Positions 22,090 to 53,975 of a DNA stretch of 64,000 bases are shown in pieces. Every line of letters begins with the position of its first letter. The first letter of the stretch is position 1. The stretch covers positions 40,982,001-41,046,000 of the forward strand of contig OX597814.1 in the NCBI GenBank assembly GCA_951406725.2, read 5' to 3'. The translations under genes and the position numbers were made by a program. Origin of the DNA: Octopus vulgaris. Lineage: Eukaryota. The notes beneath the pieces are model-generated. The model made no database searches. It was not told where the DNA came from and worked only from the letters and a program-made list of their open reading frames with translations.

Positions 22090-23454
22090 TCTCTTATTAT
22101 AAAAGGCAGATTTTATCTGCCTCCCTTTGGGAGTTATAGAAATCTACAATATAGGATTTCTTCAATTACAATTTACCTGGCATTTTGAGAGTACAATGCA
22201 TCGCGTCATGCCAGGTCCAGTTTTTAAAATTTAAACTCCAATTAAGCAAAATTTACAGAAAACTCACATTCTGGTGTGTGTGTCAAATGCTTTTCTTAGT
22301 CTGGTTTACACCACACGCAAACGCACACACACACAAAGGGAGCGAATTGTTTCACTGACGCTATCACCCTTCTCCTCCTTTGTCTTTGCAAGTTGGCAGC
22401 TATTAAAGTGAAAACAGTGAATCCGACAGCGATAAAGAAAACGAATTGGTACCTGAATGGAGTGAAAATTTAAAAACTGTTTCTTTCGGTGAGTTTTCTG
22501 AAGAAACTGGAGCCACAGACTTTCCCAGAAGAGTAAAGCCTTAGACTATTTCTATTTACTTTTTCGAATGAGCCTATTTGAAATCATTACGCTAAACGTA
22601 AACAAACCGAAAGAAAGGATAGTTTGTTATTTCCCACAACCTTAAATGAAATTAAGGCCTATTTTGCCATAAATATTATTATGGGTATCAGAAAGTTACC
22701 CAGAATAACAAATTCTATCGTAAAATTTTGTTGTATACCCAATTGAATATTAGCTAATAACCCATTTTCTATAGCGATGTTTGAACAAAATTTTAATAAT
22801 TTTACAGAAAGTTACCCAGAATAACAAATTCTATCGTAAAATTTTGTTGTATACCCAATTGAATATTAGCTAATAACCCATTTTCTATAGCGATGTTTGA
22901 ACAAAATTTTAATAATTTTACAGAAAGTTACCCAGAATAACAAATTCTATCGTAAAATTTTGTTGTATACCCAATTGAATATTAGCTAATAACCCATTTT
23001 CTATAGCGATGTTTGAACAAAATTTTAATAATTTTACAGAAAGTTACCCAGAATAACAAATTCTATCGTAAAATTTTGTTGTATACCCAATTGAATATTA
23101 GCTAATAACCCATTTTCTATAGCGATGTTTGAACAAAATTTTAATAATTTTACAGAAAGTTACCCAGAATAACAAACGAGCCCTTCTGGGTATTAGCGCG
23201 CGTCTACGATGAGTCTACGATTTAAAAAACAATTACCATCATATTTTTCCATTTTAATGCATTTTTTTCGCTTTTATATAAGGGAAGTAACTCTCTAAAA
23301 ATATCTACGATGTGTCAACGATTTAAAGAAAAATTTACCTTAATTTTTTTTCAATTTTTAATGCATTTTTTGCTACTTTTTGGCTATAACTCTCTAAAAA
23401 TGCTTATATAGTTATTTCCCTTACAACCCGAGCAACGCCGGGCGATACTGCTAG
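22090..23454 (+). mobile_element. Non-autonomous Helitron with intact termini
   Basis: A|TC 5' end at 22090, subterminal hairpin CCCGAGCAACGCCGGG, CTAG|T 3' end at 23454, no TSD. Confidence 0.88.
22689..23176. repeat. 116-bp tandem repeat, ~4.2 apparently identical copies, inside the Helitron
   Basis: CAGAAAGTTACC starts at 22689, 22805, 22921, 23037 and 23153. Confidence 0.95.
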
Positions 23455-23697
23455 TATATATATAAAAATATATTTAATCAATATAGGGTGCCAAAAAAAT
23501 TTTGTAGAATTCTTTTGCCACCAGCGGCCTAGTGGGAAAAAATTAAATAGTCATAAACCATTTTTAAGTTCAACATCACAATCAAGGAACGGCCATAATA
23601 GGCCATTCACCCACTAGAAATAACAGCCAAAAGCTTTAACCGCAAAATAACATCAATTCCGTAAACCAGGAGAAAATTAAAAAACATTTACCCTGTA

Positions 23698-23804
23698 ATT
23701 TCTTAGACGATGCACCGTTTCATCTACTGTTTAATGGTAAACTAACCTGATTAAATTAAATCAAGCCAATCCACCATAGGCCCTTAGATTCATCAGTAAG
23801 AAAT
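23698..23804 (-). ncRNA. Type I hammerhead ribozyme, array copy 1
   Basis: AUUUCUUA-CUGAUGA-AUCUA...UAGAU-GAAA-CGGUGCAUCG-UC-UAAGAAAU. Confidence 0.9.
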
Positions 23805-24188
23805 AGCCAAGTCGGAACAGATATTTTTCACGAGGTATTCTCGTTGCTACCTCGGCAATATCTGACCTAAAATTTTCAAATCGTCGCACTCACGCCAAAT
23901 TTATCGGCAGCAAATAAATATAAGCCGCCGATTCCATTACGGAATTAACCAGAAAATTCATAATTAATCAATATAGGGTGCCAAAAAAAATTTTGTAGAA
24001 TTCTTTTGCCACCAGCGGCCTAGTGGGAAAAAATTAAATAGTCATAAACCATTTTTAAGTTCAACATCACAATCAAGGAACGGCCATAATAGGCCATTCA
24101 CCCACTAGAAATAACAGCCAAAAGCTTTAACCGCAAAATATCATCAATTCCGTAAACCAGGAGAAAATTAAAAAACATTTACCCTGTA

Positions 24189-24295
24189 ATTTCTTAGACG
24201 ATGCACCGTTTCATCTACTGTTTAATGGTAAACTAACCTGATTAAATTAAATCAAGCCAATCCACCATAGGCCCTTAGATTCATCAGTAAGAAAT
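24189..24295 (-). ncRNA. Type I hammerhead ribozyme, array copy 2
   Basis: Same intact core and helices as copy 1. Confidence 0.9.
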
Positions 24296-24675
24296 AGCCA
24301 AGTCGGAACAGATATTTTTCACGAGGTATTCTCGTTGCTACCTCGGCAATATCTGACCTAAAATTTTCAAATCGTCGCACTCGCGCCAAATTTATCGGCA
24401 GCAAATAAATATAAGCCGCCGATTCCATTACGGAATTAACCAGAAAATTCATAATTAATCAATATAGGGTGCCAAAAAAATTTTGTAGAATTCTTTTGCC
24501 ACCAGCGGCCTAGTGGGAAAAAATTAAATAGTCATAAACCATTTTTAAGTTCAACATCACAATCAAGGAACGGCCATAATAGGCCATTCACCCACTAGAA
24601 ATAACAGCCAAAAGCTTTAACCGCAAAATATCATCAATTCGTAAACCAGGAGAAAATTAAAACATTTACCCTGTA

Positions 24676-24782
24676 ATTTCTTAGACGATGCACCGTTTCA
24701 TCTACTGTTTAATGGTAAACTAACCTGATTAAATTAAATCAAGCCAATCCACCATAGGCCCTTAGATTCATCAGTAAGAAAT
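24676..24782 (-). ncRNA. Type I hammerhead ribozyme, array copy 3
   Basis: Same intact core and helices. Confidence 0.9.
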
Positions 24783-25155
24783 AGCCAAGTCGGAACAGAT
24801 ATTTTTCACGAGGTATTCTCGTTGCTACCTCGGCAATATCTGACCTAAAATTTTCAAATCGTCGCACTCGCGCCAAATTTATCGGCAGCAAATAAATATA
24901 AGCCGCCGATTCCATTACGGAATTAACCAGAAAATTCATAATTAATCAATATAGGGTGGCAAAAAAATTTTTTTTTTGCCACACGATATTGATTAATTAT
25001 GAATTTTCTGGTTAATTCCGCAATCGAATCGGCGGCTTATATTTATTTGCTGCCGATAAATTTGGCGCGAGTGCGACGATTTGAAAATTTTAGGTCAGAT
25101 ATTGCCGAGGTAGCAACGAGAATACCTCGTGAAAAATATCTGTTCCGACTTGGCT

Positions 25156-25262
25156 ATTTCTTACTGATGAATCTAAGGGCCTATGGTGGATTGGCTTGAT
25201 TTAATTTAATCAGGTTAGTTTACCATTAAACAGTAGATGAAACGGTGCATCGTCTAAGAAAT
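25156..25262 (+). ncRNA. Type I hammerhead ribozyme, array copy 4
   Basis: CTGATGA at 25164-25170; 8-bp helix I; 5-bp helix II base; GUC site with predicted cleavage after 25254. Confidence 0.9.
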
Positions 25263-25648
25263 TACAGGGTAAATGTTTTTTAATTTTCTCCTGGTTTACT
25301 GAATTGATGTTATTTTGCGGTTAAAGCTTTTGGCTGTTATTTCTAGTGGGTGAATGGCCTATTATGGCCGTTCCTTGATTGTGATGTTGAACTTAAAAAT
25401 GGTTTATGACTATTTAATTTTTTTCCCACTAGGCCGCTGGTGGCAAAAGAATTCTACAAAATTTTTCTTTGCCACCCTATATTGATTAATTATGAATTTT
25501 CTGGTTAATTCCGTAATGGAATCGGCGGCTTATATTTATTTGCTGCCGATAAATTTGGCGTGAGTGCGACGATTTGAAAATTTTAGGTCAGATATTTTCG
25601 AGGTAGCAACGAGAATACCTCGTGAAAAATATCTGTTCCGACTTGGCT

Positions 25649-25755
25649 ATTTCTTACTGATGAATCTAAGGGCCTACGGTGGTTTGGCTTGATTTAATTT
25701 AATCAGGTTAGTTTACCATTAAACAGTAGATGAAACGGTGCATCGTCTAAGAAAT
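25649..25755 (+). ncRNA. Type I hammerhead ribozyme, array copy 5
   Basis: Intact core; predicted cleavage after 25747. Confidence 0.9.
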
Positions 25756-26137
25756 TACAAATTAAATGTTTTTTATTTTTCTCCTGGTTTACGGAATTGA
25801 TGTTATTTTGCGGTTAAAGCTTTGGCTGTTATTTCTAGTGTGTGAATGGCCTATTATGGCCGTTCCTTGATTGTGATGTTGAACTTAAAAATGGTTTATG
25901 ACTATTTAATTTTTTCCCACTAGGCCGCTGGTGGCAAAAGAATTCTACAAAATTTTTTTTGCACCCTATATTGATTAATTATGAATTTTCTGGTTAATTC
26001 CGCAATCGAATCGGCGGCTTATATTTATTTGCTGCCGATAAATTTGGCGCGAGTGCGACGATTTGAAAATTTTAGGTCAGATATTGCCGAGGTAGCAACG
26101 AGAATACCTCGTGAAAAATATCTGTTCCGACTTGGCT

Positions 26138-26243
26138 ATTTCTTACTGATGAATCTAAGGGCCTATGGTGGATTGGCTTGATTTAATTTAATCAGGTTGG
26201 TTACCATTAAACAGTAGATGAAACGGTGCATCGTCTAAGAAAT
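26138..26243 (+). ncRNA. Type I hammerhead ribozyme, array copy 6
   Basis: Intact core; predicted cleavage after 26235. Confidence 0.9.
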
Positions 26244-26627
26244 TACAGGGTAAATGTTTTTTAATTTTCTCCTGGTTTACGGAATTGATGTTATTTTGCG
26301 GTTAAAGCTTTTGGCTGTTATTTCTAGTGGGTGAATGGCCTATTATGGCCGTTCCTTGATTGTGATGTTGAACTTAAAAATGGTTTATGACTATTTAATT
26401 TTTTCCCACTAGGCCGCTGGTGGCAAAAGAATTCTACAAAATTTTTTTTGACACCCTATATTGATTAATTATGAATTTTCTGGTTAATTCCGTAATGGAA
26501 TCGGCGGCTTATATTTATTTGCTGCCGATACATTTGGCGCGAGTGCGACGATTTGAAAATTTTAGGTCAGATATTGCCGAGGTAGCAACGAGAATACCTC
26601 GTGAAAAATATCTGTTCCGACTTGGCT

Positions 26628-26734
26628 ATTTCTTACTGATGAATCTAAGGGCCTATGGTGGATTGGCTTGATTTAATTTAATCAGGTTAGTTTACCATTA
26701 AACAGTAGATGAAACGGTGCATCGTCTAAGAAAT
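26628..26734 (+). ncRNA. Type I hammerhead ribozyme, array copy 7
   Basis: Intact core; predicted cleavage after 26726. Confidence 0.9.
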
Positions 26735-26929
26735 TACAGGGTAAATGTTTTTTAATTTTCTCCTGGTTTACGGAATTGATGTTATTTTGCGGTTAAAGCT
26801 TTTGGCTGTTATTTCTAGTGGGTGAATGGCCTATTATGGCCGTTCCTTGATTGTGATATATATAAATATATGTATATATATACATATATATATGCATATA
26901 TATATATATATATATATATGCGTGTGTGT

Positions 26930-52139: not shown

Positions 52140-53975
52140 TTGGATGTGTTAGAAACAAAGTAGAGTAAATAAACTACAGAAGATTTGTATTATATGGTTG
52201 AAAATATATTAAAATAGGCATGTTAGGAATAAAATATAAAATTTCAAGTGTAGTGATATTGTTTTGGGAAAAATGACCGGATTTTTGTATTTTCTTTTCA
52301 AATGTCTCAAATTTCTTTAACGATGTCATCTTTTCGTCATGGTCTGATGTAGAAGGGTTCGAAACAGGGGAGGTAATCCGGGATTTTTTCGGTATAAGGG
52401 AAATAATGAAAAATATTGGAAATATTTAGGTGTATTTAGTTTAATATGATATGGTTTTTATTGAATGAAGTGCTAGAAATGGTTAAGTTTGGGTTTATAT
52501 TTTTCTATGAGGTAAGATTCCTTATTTAGAAACGCTAGAAATGGTTAAGTTTTGGCTTATATTTTTCAATAAAATAAGTTTCCATCTGTAATCTAACTTG
52601 TGCTGATGTTCCAATAGGACATTGATAAAATGGAGAAATTACAAATTGTGGTATCAGTCGTTTTCCGCAACTGTCAATGTCTTCACGATAGGGTATAATT
52701 CTGTATTCTGAGAAGGCAATGTGCTGTCGGTGCAGAGTGCATCTGCGTCTGAGCGATAATCACGTGGGCCCTATGTAATTCTGGTAGCAGCCGGAGCATC
52801 CTACAACATATACCAGGTTTTCCGAAGTGCAAGCTAAGTCAGATTACATTGTTAATTTTTGTCCTTCTTTAAAAAGGAATTCTGCTGCTTCTATAATGAT
52901 GTGGCATGTTACGCATTTTAGTCCACCACATTTTGTCGTTTTTGAGTCCGTTATTTTAAAAAAGATTTTTGACTTTTGAGGATATTTTTTAGTGACTTCT
53001 GTTGTTTGTGGATTTTAATGTTCTTATGTGTGTGTGTATAATTTCCTATAGTTTGGAGATTTAATGTAACATTGGTAGATTTTGTGTGATGATGGTGGAG
53101 GCTTCTTTGTTTCTGGGTTTGTAAGTAGATATGTACGGTATTATTTGGGGGGAGAGGGAGTTGCTGCGTTGTAGTTTTATGAAGGCCTTTATGTCGATTT
53201 GTGTTGCACGTCTCATTCTAAGCTCTATAAGTTGAACTGCATAGTATCTATCAATAAGGGTGTTTTTGAGTTCTTACAGCCTAAATCGCTGGCATTTTTC
53301 TGACAGTATGGTGCATATCCTTCTTGCAAGGCTGAATGGGATGTTTGAGTTGGCGTGTCTTGGGTGGCACAAATTATATAGTAGATATTGTTTGGCGTCT
53401 GCGGTTTTGTAAAATATATCCGTTTCTACGTTTCGGCCTATATTGTTAAATATTATATCCAAAATCTGGAGTTTCTTCTGGTTGTATTCCATTGCGAATT
53501 ATATGTTATGGTTGACGCTGATCAATATTCTTTTGAATTCAAGGAGTTTATGTGTCTTTTCATTCCAGAAGATGAAACTGACGTCCAGCAATATTTTCCA
53601 ATTCCATTTTATGTATTAGAAAAGAGGGTTTCCAAAGGTAGGTAAAGATACCTGTTATATTCTTATTTCCAGGTAGCACATTATTACATTCACAATGCCC
53701 GAAGCTGCTCTAGTACCCATAGCAATTCCGGATTATTGTCGATAAAAAGTGTTACCAAACATAAAATTATTGTTCCGTAGGGTAAACTTAAATGACTATG
53801 AATTCTTTGCTAATCATTTCCGGTATTTCTTCCGGATATTGGTCCGGCCAGAACTGAACTGCCTCTCGTCTAAATTTGTGTGGTATACTGGTATATAAGC
53901 TATTCACATCAAATGAAACCTTGACCTTTTGGGGGGAGGTGATTTAACATGTCCAAGTCATCTCTGATATATTTC
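52140..53975 (-). mobile_element. Penelope-like element, decayed (RT plus GIY-YIG endonuclease)
   Basis: VSFDVNSLYTSIPH, GIAMGTRAAS, thumb ETDIFYKTADAKQYLLYNLCHPRH..NIPFSLARRIC, KCGGLKCVTC and CTSENLVYVVGCSGCYQNYIG. The left boundary is approximate. Confidence 0.92.

What the first reader, a model, noticed from the sequence alone, without database searches (positions are those of the whole stretch)
24990..25480. The monomer is a branched, almost fully paired RNA with G-U pairs on one strand only
Seen on the HHR-sense strand: a 19-bp hairpin extending helix II (AUGGUGGAUUGGCUUGAUU/AAUCAGGUUAGUUUACCAU) with 6 G-U pairs and no mismatch. Other stems are AUCGGCGGC/GCUGCCGAU, CAGAUAUU/AAUAUCUG enclosing CGAGGUA/UACCUCG, GAAUGGCC/GGCCGUUC, CUAGUGGG/CCCACUAG, GCGGUU/GGCCGC, GGUGGCAAA/UUUGCCACC, and a long-range UUAAUUCCGUAA/UUACGGAAUUGA (best seen in units 5 and 7). 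Inference: the non-Watson-Crick positions in these stems are G-U here and would be A-C on the other strand, which points to selection on RNA structure and not on DNA cruciforms. It fits a compact viroid-like circle.
Basis: partly seen in the sequence, partly recalled or inferred. Interest (0 to 1): 0.75.

Follow-up and report, generated by a model that had tools for sequence, protein, structure and literature searches.

The report
Structured hammerhead retrozyme with conserved fold
This is one unit of a 490-base non-coding repeat found at over a thousand candidate sites in an animal genome; it carries a predicted self-cutting RNA motif and keeps the same set of stems across diverged copies, so it likely spreads as a folded RNA circle copied by a Penelope-type retrotransposon enzyme, as proposed for known animal retrozymes.

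Summary
The nine quoted stems are present and predicted at high probability. 'Almost fully paired' is wrong: 63.5% of bases pair, against 63% in shuffles. The G-U argument from one copy is weak, because the strand is G+U-rich: shuffles give more G-U pairs (31 vs 25) and most of the strand gap in energy. The conclusion survives a better test. Across 21 genomic monomers (63-97% identical) the stems covary, and changes to G-U are kept more often than changes to A-C (share 0.71 vs 0.55; 0 of 300 tree-aware nulls). The unit is a type I hammerhead repeat of the non-LTR retrozyme kind. Of 40 insertions examined, 36 are back-to-back arrays in or beside (TA)n, and 34 end at two fixed points, the Penelope-type footprint. 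Variants are mostly all-or-none per insertion, as a single circular template predicts. No antisense hammerhead core was found, so the canonical viroid-type test fails. Expression, cleavage and circularity are untested. The scan noted what appears to be this family earlier elsewhere in this genome (e1-8672319). New here: the covarying fold, a junction hotspot at one hairpin, and a possible short pseudoknot.

The parts
23470..26857 (.). Whole insertion: two back-to-back tandem arrays of a 487-493 bp unit, between TA-repeat tracts
23470..24972 (-). Left arm, about 3.1 units, hammerhead sense on -; outer end near unit position 237 counted from the cleavage site; predicted cleavage after 24684, 24197, 23706
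24955..26857 (+). Right arm, about 3.9 units, hammerhead sense on +; outer end at unit position 131; predicted cleavage after 25254, 25747, 26235, 26726
24955..24985 (.). Inversion junction, centred on hairpin S7 (unit positions 184-220)
25157..25261 (+). Type I hammerhead motif of the finding's unit: helix I 25157-25163/25255-25261, core CUGAUGA 25164-25170, helix II 25171-25175 with its partner just before GAAA, short palindromic helix III, predicted cut after GUC at 25254
25183..25226 (+). 19-bp hairpin extending helix II (13 WC, 6 G-U); covaries in relatives; shortened or absent in four older relatives
25152..25181 (+). Possible 3-bp pseudoknot: GGC (25152-25154, 5' of helix I) with GCC (25179-25181, internal loop of helix II); inconclusive
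25028..25057 (+). Stem S1 (9 bp)
25096..25142 (+). Stems S2 (8 bp) and S3 (7 bp, 25106-25129)
25317..25437 (+). Multibranch domain: S6 (25317-25322/25432-25437), S5 (25343-25350/25425-25432), S4 (25352-25373); holds the position-131 end site
25439..25476 (+). Hairpin S7; hotspot for the inner ends of position-131 arms
26277..26495 (+). Long-range stem S8 (26277-26288 with 26484-26495), shown in a unit where it is intact
26858..26919 (.). (TA)n tract at the right end; a short TA tract lies at about 23455-23464 on the left

Best explanation
The unit is a non-coding 490-base tandem repeat with a type I hammerhead motif and stems that covary across diverged copies, and it likely works as a non-LTR retrozyme whose folded RNA circle is copied into (TA)n by a Penelope-like element's protein. 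Steps: (1) Inferred: an array is transcribed on the hammerhead-sense strand. (2) Inferred: neighbouring hammerheads cut, probably as dimers through the 12-nt palindromic helix III, and release monomers that a host ligase closes, as shown for other animals. (3) Shown by comparison: the monomer's branched fold is conserved, with G-U tolerated and A-C less so on the sense strand. (4) Shown: insertions sit in or beside (TA)n as two opposed arrays ending at unit positions about 131 and about 237. Inferred: a Penelope-type endonuclease/RT cuts both target strands and primes one cDNA at each site. (5) Inferred: RT runs round one circle for 0.1 to 11 turns, and the two cDNAs join by 0-6 nt microhomology, often at or beside hairpin S7.
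For: Hammerhead core in every unit, with covarying helix I (first pair A-U 14, G-C 15 of 30) and helix III (third pair in four Watson-Crick types). Stems: 90.3% of cells paired, 20 of 85 pairs with double changes; tree-aware nulls exceeded 0 of 300; one-sided transitions to G-U 28 vs A-C 14, against 40.1 vs 46.9 expected from unpaired columns, p about 0.006. Architecture: 1,226 candidate loci; 36 of 40 insertions have two inverted arms and 34 of these 36 have one end at 131-136 and one at 232-244. In diverged subfamilies, 43 of 65 arms end near 131 and 17 of 65 near 237. Two internal RT start sites and extension of both strands were shown in vitro for a lizard PLE (PMC11167929). Shared variants are fixed in all units in 58 locus-by-variant cells and partial in 25, against 8.6 and 122 when permuted; 7 variants private to one insertion are fixed in all its full units. 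A young (copies mostly 98-99% identical), intact 781-aa RT + GIY-YIG element with (TA)n targets and two 3' ends 39 nt apart is present in the genome.
Against: No RNA molecule, cleavage product or circle was observed. The candidate helper shares no detectable sequence with the unit (best E 0.14) and no hammerhead was found in it. Some arrays show variants with multi-unit periodicity (L035 period 4, L033, this window's + arm), which a single monomer circle does not explain without later duplication or oligomeric circles. Units on opposite arms of one insertion differ by 4.6 substitutions on average (20 pairs), between the within-insertion mean (2.5) and the between-insertion mean (6.8). 6 of 36 position-237 arms stop 1-14 nt from the cleavage site (p 0.0005-0.02), which also fits linear templates with a cut 5' end. 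The 40 insertions were the best-scoring of 1,226 candidates, not a random sample. The stems were chosen on family 1, which supplies 3 of the 21 rows. In Xenopus only 1 of 9 predicted retrozyme dimers cleaved in vitro.
Confidence: 0.8

Rival explanations
1. The same Penelope-type passenger, but copied from linear multimeric transcripts (uncut, or cut only at the 5' end). The fold would serve ribozyme geometry and protein recognition and not a circle, and homogeneity within arrays would come from homogeneous parent arrays and local conversion.
For: 6 of 36 arms stop just 3' of the cleavage site; periodic variants in L033, L035 and the window; in the lizard PLE, uncleaved RNA was the dominant substrate in vitro.
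Against: Private variants fixed in all full units of an insertion, on both arms in L041 and the window; arms of up to 11 units; circles shown by northern blot for coral, mussel and axolotl retrozymes.
Confidence: 0.3
2. The stems are DNA-level features (cruciforms or single-stranded cDNA hairpins) or by-products of AT-rich low complexity in a satellite that expands by unequal crossing-over; the G-U pattern reflects base skew only.
For: The - strand also folds better than shuffles (z -1.9 to -7.2); G-U count and paired fraction are not above shuffles; with strand-symmetric stem definitions the excess is modest (distinct G-U:A-C types 21:13, 31:15, 30:23).
Against: Covarying hammerhead helices on one strand only; G-U kept over A-C beyond both background and tree-aware nulls; dispersed insertions with fixed ends on many chromosomes.
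Confidence: 0.07
3. An endogenised viroid-like replicon that copies itself RNA to RNA.
For: Size, hammerhead and branched fold; RNA-RNA replication was raised as a possibility for mussel retrozymes.
Against: No antisense CUGANGA core in 21 of 21 monomers; retrotransposon-type ends; pairing no denser than in shuffles.
Confidence: 0.05

Closest known systems
Animal non-LTR retrozymes (Cervera & de la Pena 2020, PMC7229834; Li, Clavereau & Pollet 2026, 10.64898/2026.07.22.740005)
   Same: Non-coding tandem repeats, one type I hammerhead per unit, GC below 50%, short palindromic helix III, stable branched predicted fold with the hammerhead helices left free, co-occurrence with Penelope-like elements.
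   Different: The unit of about 490 nt is above the 150-450 bp range of the 2020 paper but within the 51-972 bp of the 2026 preprint. Helix II carries a long optional hairpin. The fold is tested here by covariation. Two-armed insertions with two fixed ends were not described in the sections I read. Expression and circles are not shown here.
EN+ Penelope-like elements (PAc in vitro, PMC11167929; structural features, 10.1101/2021.04.23.441226)
   Same: Inverted 5'-truncated partner copy, two alternative 3' ends a 'tail' apart, AT-rich or (TA)n targets, start sites roughly 85-240 nt downstream of a hammerhead cut site.
   Different: No ORF (longest ATG frame on the circle 19-66 aa); the tail is 106 nt, not 30-40; no sequence match to the one autonomous family examined.
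Hammerhead viroids and satellite circRNAs (family features partly recalled; passages of PMC7761336)
   Same: Small size, hammerhead, branched fold.
   Different: Canonical hammerhead core on one polarity only; genome-encoded and dispersed with a retrotransposon footprint; the ribozyme is not blocked by complementary sequence (helices I and II form in the ensemble).
Pseudoknot-stabilised hammerheads (Perreault et al. 2011, PMC3088659)
   Same: A base-paired contact between the helix I and helix II regions would align the two stems.
   Different: Only 3 conserved pairs here, one double change, not tested for function.

Membership tests
Non-LTR retrozyme | Type I hammerhead with full core in each unit | tested here: met
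   7 of 7 cores in the window; helices covary in 30 domains. Rfam gave no hammerhead hit, probably because of the long helix II insertion (inference).
Non-LTR retrozyme | [quoted passage not shown] | tested here: met
   Period 487-493; 1,226 candidate loci, 40 scored.
Non-LTR retrozyme | No protein-coding capacity | tested here: met
   Longest ATG frame 19-66 aa in 21 monomers.
Non-LTR retrozyme | Stable self-paired predicted structure | tested here: met
   z -3.8 to -8.3 on the sense strand in 9 of 9 monomers; covariation.
Non-LTR retrozyme | Self-cleavage of the transcript | not testable with these tools
   Needs in vitro transcription; 6 of 36 arm ends beside the cut site are an indirect hint.
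Non-LTR retrozyme | Expressed as monomeric linear and circular RNA | not testable with these tools
   Only assembled contigs were available; these cannot show strand, ends or circles.
Penelope-like element passenger | Inverted 5'-truncated arm plus two alternative 3' ends | tested here: met
   36 of 40 two-armed; 34 of 36 with one end of each kind.
Penelope-like element passenger | Intact autonomous PLE with the same target in the genome | tested here: met
   781-aa RT + GIY-YIG frames, (TA)n flanks, two ends 39 nt apart (RVT_1 at 28.9 bits, just under the 29.6 cut-off).
Penelope-like element passenger | Sequence homology to the helper's pseudo-LTR | tested here: not met
   No BLAST match better than E 0.14 to the one family examined; other PLE families among 6,136 GIY-YIG candidates were not examined.
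Hammerhead viroid / viroid-like replicon | Ribozymes in both polarities | tested here: not met
   No antisense CUGANGA in 21 of 21 monomers; other ribozyme classes were checked only through Rfam on the window.
Hammerhead viroid / viroid-like replicon | RNA-to-RNA replication | not testable with these tools
   Needs stranded raw reads or experiments.
Pseudoknot-stabilised hammerhead | Covarying base pairs between the helix I and helix II regions | tested here: inconclusive
   GG/CC(U) core in 25 of 25 anchored rows (the anchors were chosen on it); third pair kept in 24 of 25 (C-G 20, U-G 3, U-A 1; shuffle p 0.037); flanking pairs not above shuffles; 5 of 30 rows not anchored.

The most novel reading that the evidence does not exclude
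Each insertion records one RNA circle being copied round and round from two fixed starts by a Penelope-type dimer, and the RNA's conserved fold sets the geometry: the two starts flank hairpin S7, and the cDNA begun at position 131 tends to stop and join its partner at that hairpin (16 of 34 arms; 7 of 19 arms too short to have been selected by the query). The family would then be a natural read-out linking retrozyme structure to the still unvalidated later steps of Penelope integration, with a hammerhead variant braced by a short pseudoknot under an optional long hairpin.
Probability: 0.4. Interest if true: 0.65.

Novelty: new member of a known kind. Interest (0 to 1): 0.4.

Why it matters
A stable branched fold is expected for retrozymes, so the feature as reported is not surprising. 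What adds value is the evidence. In the papers read here, animal retrozyme structures rest on energy predictions, and their copying from circles by Penelope-like proteins is a proposal. This family gives covariation support for a whole-monomer fold. It also gives a large set of insertions whose ends, junctions and haplotypes can test rolling-circle reverse transcription and two-strand priming from sequence alone, and a defined RNA for in vitro work.

Tried and rejected
(1) G-U count and +/- energy gap as evidence from one copy: explained mostly by G+U-rich composition. (2) A-to-I editing as the source of the G-U pairs: no A>G excess on the sense strand among variants private to one locus (A>G 7, T>C 15) or shared (3 vs 1); low power. 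(3) Rfam: no match at gathering scores; three weak matches far below threshold, none a hammerhead. (4) Sequencing runs: no RNA holder listed on record. Runs only guessed to be RNA were laid as contigs and are not used for or against expression. (5) One variant pattern found nothing in the genome. (6) Helper search: 14 short-helix hammerhead matches gave 4 older relatives and no RT frame; the 781-aa family shows no homology to the unit. (7) Alternative pairings: the consensus fold prefers a local partner for the S6 5' strand and a longer-range partner for the S3 3' strand; the data do not settle these. (8) Literature: searches for octopus + hammerhead ribozyme + genome, retrozyme/hammerhead/octopus, Penelope + twin priming and retrozyme + covariation listed no paper on this family. 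The library lacks most subscription papers. The supplement of PMC7229834, which shows more invertebrate retrozymes, could not be read and may bear on novelty. bioRxiv supplements are closed.

Full report
What is there. The finding covers one period of a tandem repeat of 487-493 bp. In the window it forms two back-to-back arrays: about 3.1 units on the - strand (23470-24972) and about 3.9 units on the + strand (24955-26857), between TA tracts. Each of the 7 complete cores is a type I hammerhead motif: CUGAUGA, helix II with a long insertion, GAAA, a short palindromic helix III and a GUC cut site. The window lies in a 2.8-Gb, microsatellite-rich animal assembly. Size and repeat content recall a cephalopod; that label is recalled and was not tested.

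Checking the observation. All nine stems exist as quoted, with the stated G-U counts, and most of their pairs have probability 0.8-1.0 in the circular ensemble. The stretch folds better than dinucleotide shuffles on both strands (z -5.4 and -3.55). As a circle, the unit gives -140.8 kcal/mol on the sense strand and -93.9 on the other; 100 shuffles give -109.7 +/- 6.9 and -73.0 +/- 5.7. So the gap between strands (-46.9) is mostly compositional (-36.7 +/- 6.4). The sense fold pairs 63.5% of bases, the same as shuffles (63 +/- 3%), and holds 25 G-U pairs against 31 +/- 4. With G-U forbidden the sense strand is still far better than shuffles (-99.3 vs -69.9 +/- 6.2). The fold is therefore unusually stable and well defined (ensemble distance 71 vs 134 +/- 25 in 40 shuffles) but not almost fully paired. 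In 9 family members the sense z ranged from -3.8 to -8.3 and the antisense z from -1.9 to -7.2; the gap exceeded composition in 2 of 9 (20 shuffles each). The mismatch-free 19-bp hairpin with 6 G-U occurs in 3 of 93 full family-1 units.

Family and covariation. A genome search gave 1,226 candidate loci, of which 40 were scored. Pattern searches found a subfamily at 92-94% identity and 163 hammerhead matches mostly from more diverged subfamilies. From 64 complete periods I kept one member of each of 21 clusters at 97% identity, spanning 63-97%. That control ignores relatedness, so I built a tree-aware null that redistributes each branch's substitutions among stem columns. Same-branch compensatory events were 5.1 against 1.4 +/- 1.2, the paired fraction 0.90 against 0.72, and the G-U share among G-U and A-C changes 0.71 against 0.55, each reached by 0 of 300 nulls. 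Against rates from 86 unpaired columns, G-U-making transitions were seen at 28 sites and A-C-making ones at 14 (expected 40.1 and 46.9; p about 0.006), and 13 vs 5 when shared by two or more rows (p about 0.012). Few unpaired columns are G or C, so these rates are rough. Strand-symmetric stem definitions give a smaller excess (21:13, 31:15, 30:23). The consensus fold scores -57.2 on the sense strand and -28.6 on the antisense strand. The stems were picked on family 1, which biases these tests somewhat.

The ribozyme. In 30 hammerhead domains helix I covaries (first pair A-U 14, G-C 15, G-U 1), and the third pair of helix III takes four Watson-Crick forms while the whole segment stays a 12-nt palindrome. 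The central UGCA was part of my search pattern for diverged copies, so its invariance is not evidence. Helix III does not form in the monomer ensemble (p about 0.01), which fits the dimeric hammerheads described for animal repeats (PMC4209133, passages). Four older relatives have a shortened or absent helix II hairpin, so the 19-bp hairpin is optional. A conserved GG(C/U) 5' of helix I could pair with (G/A)CC in the internal loop of helix II. The third pair holds in 24 of 25 anchored rows with one double change, flanking pairs are not above shuffles, and 5 of 30 rows, including family 1, were not anchored by the script. I rate this pseudoknot inconclusive; such contacts are known in all three hammerhead types (PMC3088659, passages). 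No antisense core occurs in 21 of 21 monomers, and the longest frame is 19-66 aa.

How it is copied. Of 40 insertions, 36 have two opposed arms and 4 a single arm. In 34 of the 36, one arm ends at unit position 131-136 and the other at 232-244, nearly always against (TA)n. Diverged subfamilies keep both ends: 43 of 65 arms near 131 and 17 of 65 near 237. A run labelled as another organism shows the 131 end followed by AT repeats. Fixed ends are the sense 3' ends and ragged ends the sense 5' ends, so the template is likely the hammerhead-sense RNA. Inverted truncated partners, a tail on one end and microsatellite targets are Penelope-like hallmarks (10.1101/2021.04.23.441226, passages). A lizard PLE protein extends both target strands and starts at two internal sites that define the tail (PMC11167929, parts 1-2 of 4). 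Junctions show 0-6 nt overlap in 26 of 36, extra bases in 6, and in 4, including this window, centre on hairpin S7. Inner ends of 131-arms fall in positions 183-225 in 16 of 34 cases, and in 7 of 19 arms too short to have been selected by my query (p about 0.0008). Inner ends of 237-arms lie within 14 nt of the cut site in 6 of 36 cases (p 0.0005-0.02).

Circle or linear template. In 18 insertions with two or more full units, shared variants are fixed in all units in 58 cells and partial in 25 (permuted: 8.6 and 122), and 7 private variants are fixed in all full units of their insertion. A monomer bottleneck, as in rolling-circle copying, predicts this. Against it: periodic variants in L033, L035 and this window, a larger distance between arms (4.6, 20 pairs) than within insertions overall (2.5), and the ends beside the cut site. 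A circle is therefore likely, not shown.

Helper. A GIY-YIG search found a young family with intact 781-aa RT + GIY-YIG frames, (TA)n flanks and two 3' ends 39 nt apart. It shares no detectable sequence with the unit and I found no hammerhead in it, so it is a candidate only.

Comparison and verdict. The element meets every sequence-level feature of animal non-LTR retrozymes that I tested (PMC7229834, parts 2-4 of 6; 10.64898/2026.07.22.740005, parts 1-3 of 5; PMC7761336, passages). Those papers already predict stable, self-paired circles and propose Penelope-like helpers. It fails the two-polarity test for hammerhead viroids. My reading was formed before I consulted the scan's notes, which report what appears to be the same family elsewhere in this genome and similar ones in other genomes; they are unchecked AI notes and add no support. 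Verdict: a real, conserved RNA structure in a new member of a known kind. Interest 0.4, resting on the covariation data and the testable link between fold and insertion junctions.

Noticed in passing
window 22689-23176 and 23430-23456: A 116-bp unit in 4.2 identical copies, followed about 250 bp later by a short GC-rich hairpin and CTAG just left of the retrozyme. This resembles the 3' end of a Helitron-type element (motif recalled, not tested).
   Followed up: no
window about 52500-52850, - strand: Broken GIY-YIG fragment resembling the C-terminus of the 781-aa Penelope-like frame.
   Followed up: no
L154-L169 (e.g. L154:2745-5087): Young Penelope-like family, mostly 98-99% identical, with intact RT + Cys-rich linker + GIY-YIG frame, a 93-bp internal repeat in the 3' region, a long upstream region that looks coding, and no hammerhead detected.
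   Followed up: partly
window 25011-25015 and 26002-26006: A two-base variant that weakens stem S8 recurs at a two-unit interval in the + arm only, suggesting later duplication or a dimeric template.
   Followed up: partly
L035, L033: Private variants repeat with a period of four units in L035 and irregularly in L033.
   Followed up: partly
L126-L129, L133, L137: Isolated short hammerhead-like motifs unrelated to this family by BLAST; L133 ends in (TA)n about 95 nt after the cut site. Possibly remnants of Penelope pseudo-LTRs.
   Followed up: no
L057 junction: The junction holds short templated repeats of the S3 hairpin sequence, as if RT slipped there several times.
   Followed up: no
L120, L121: Two-armed insertions of diverged subfamilies with both outer ends near position 131.
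   Followed up: no
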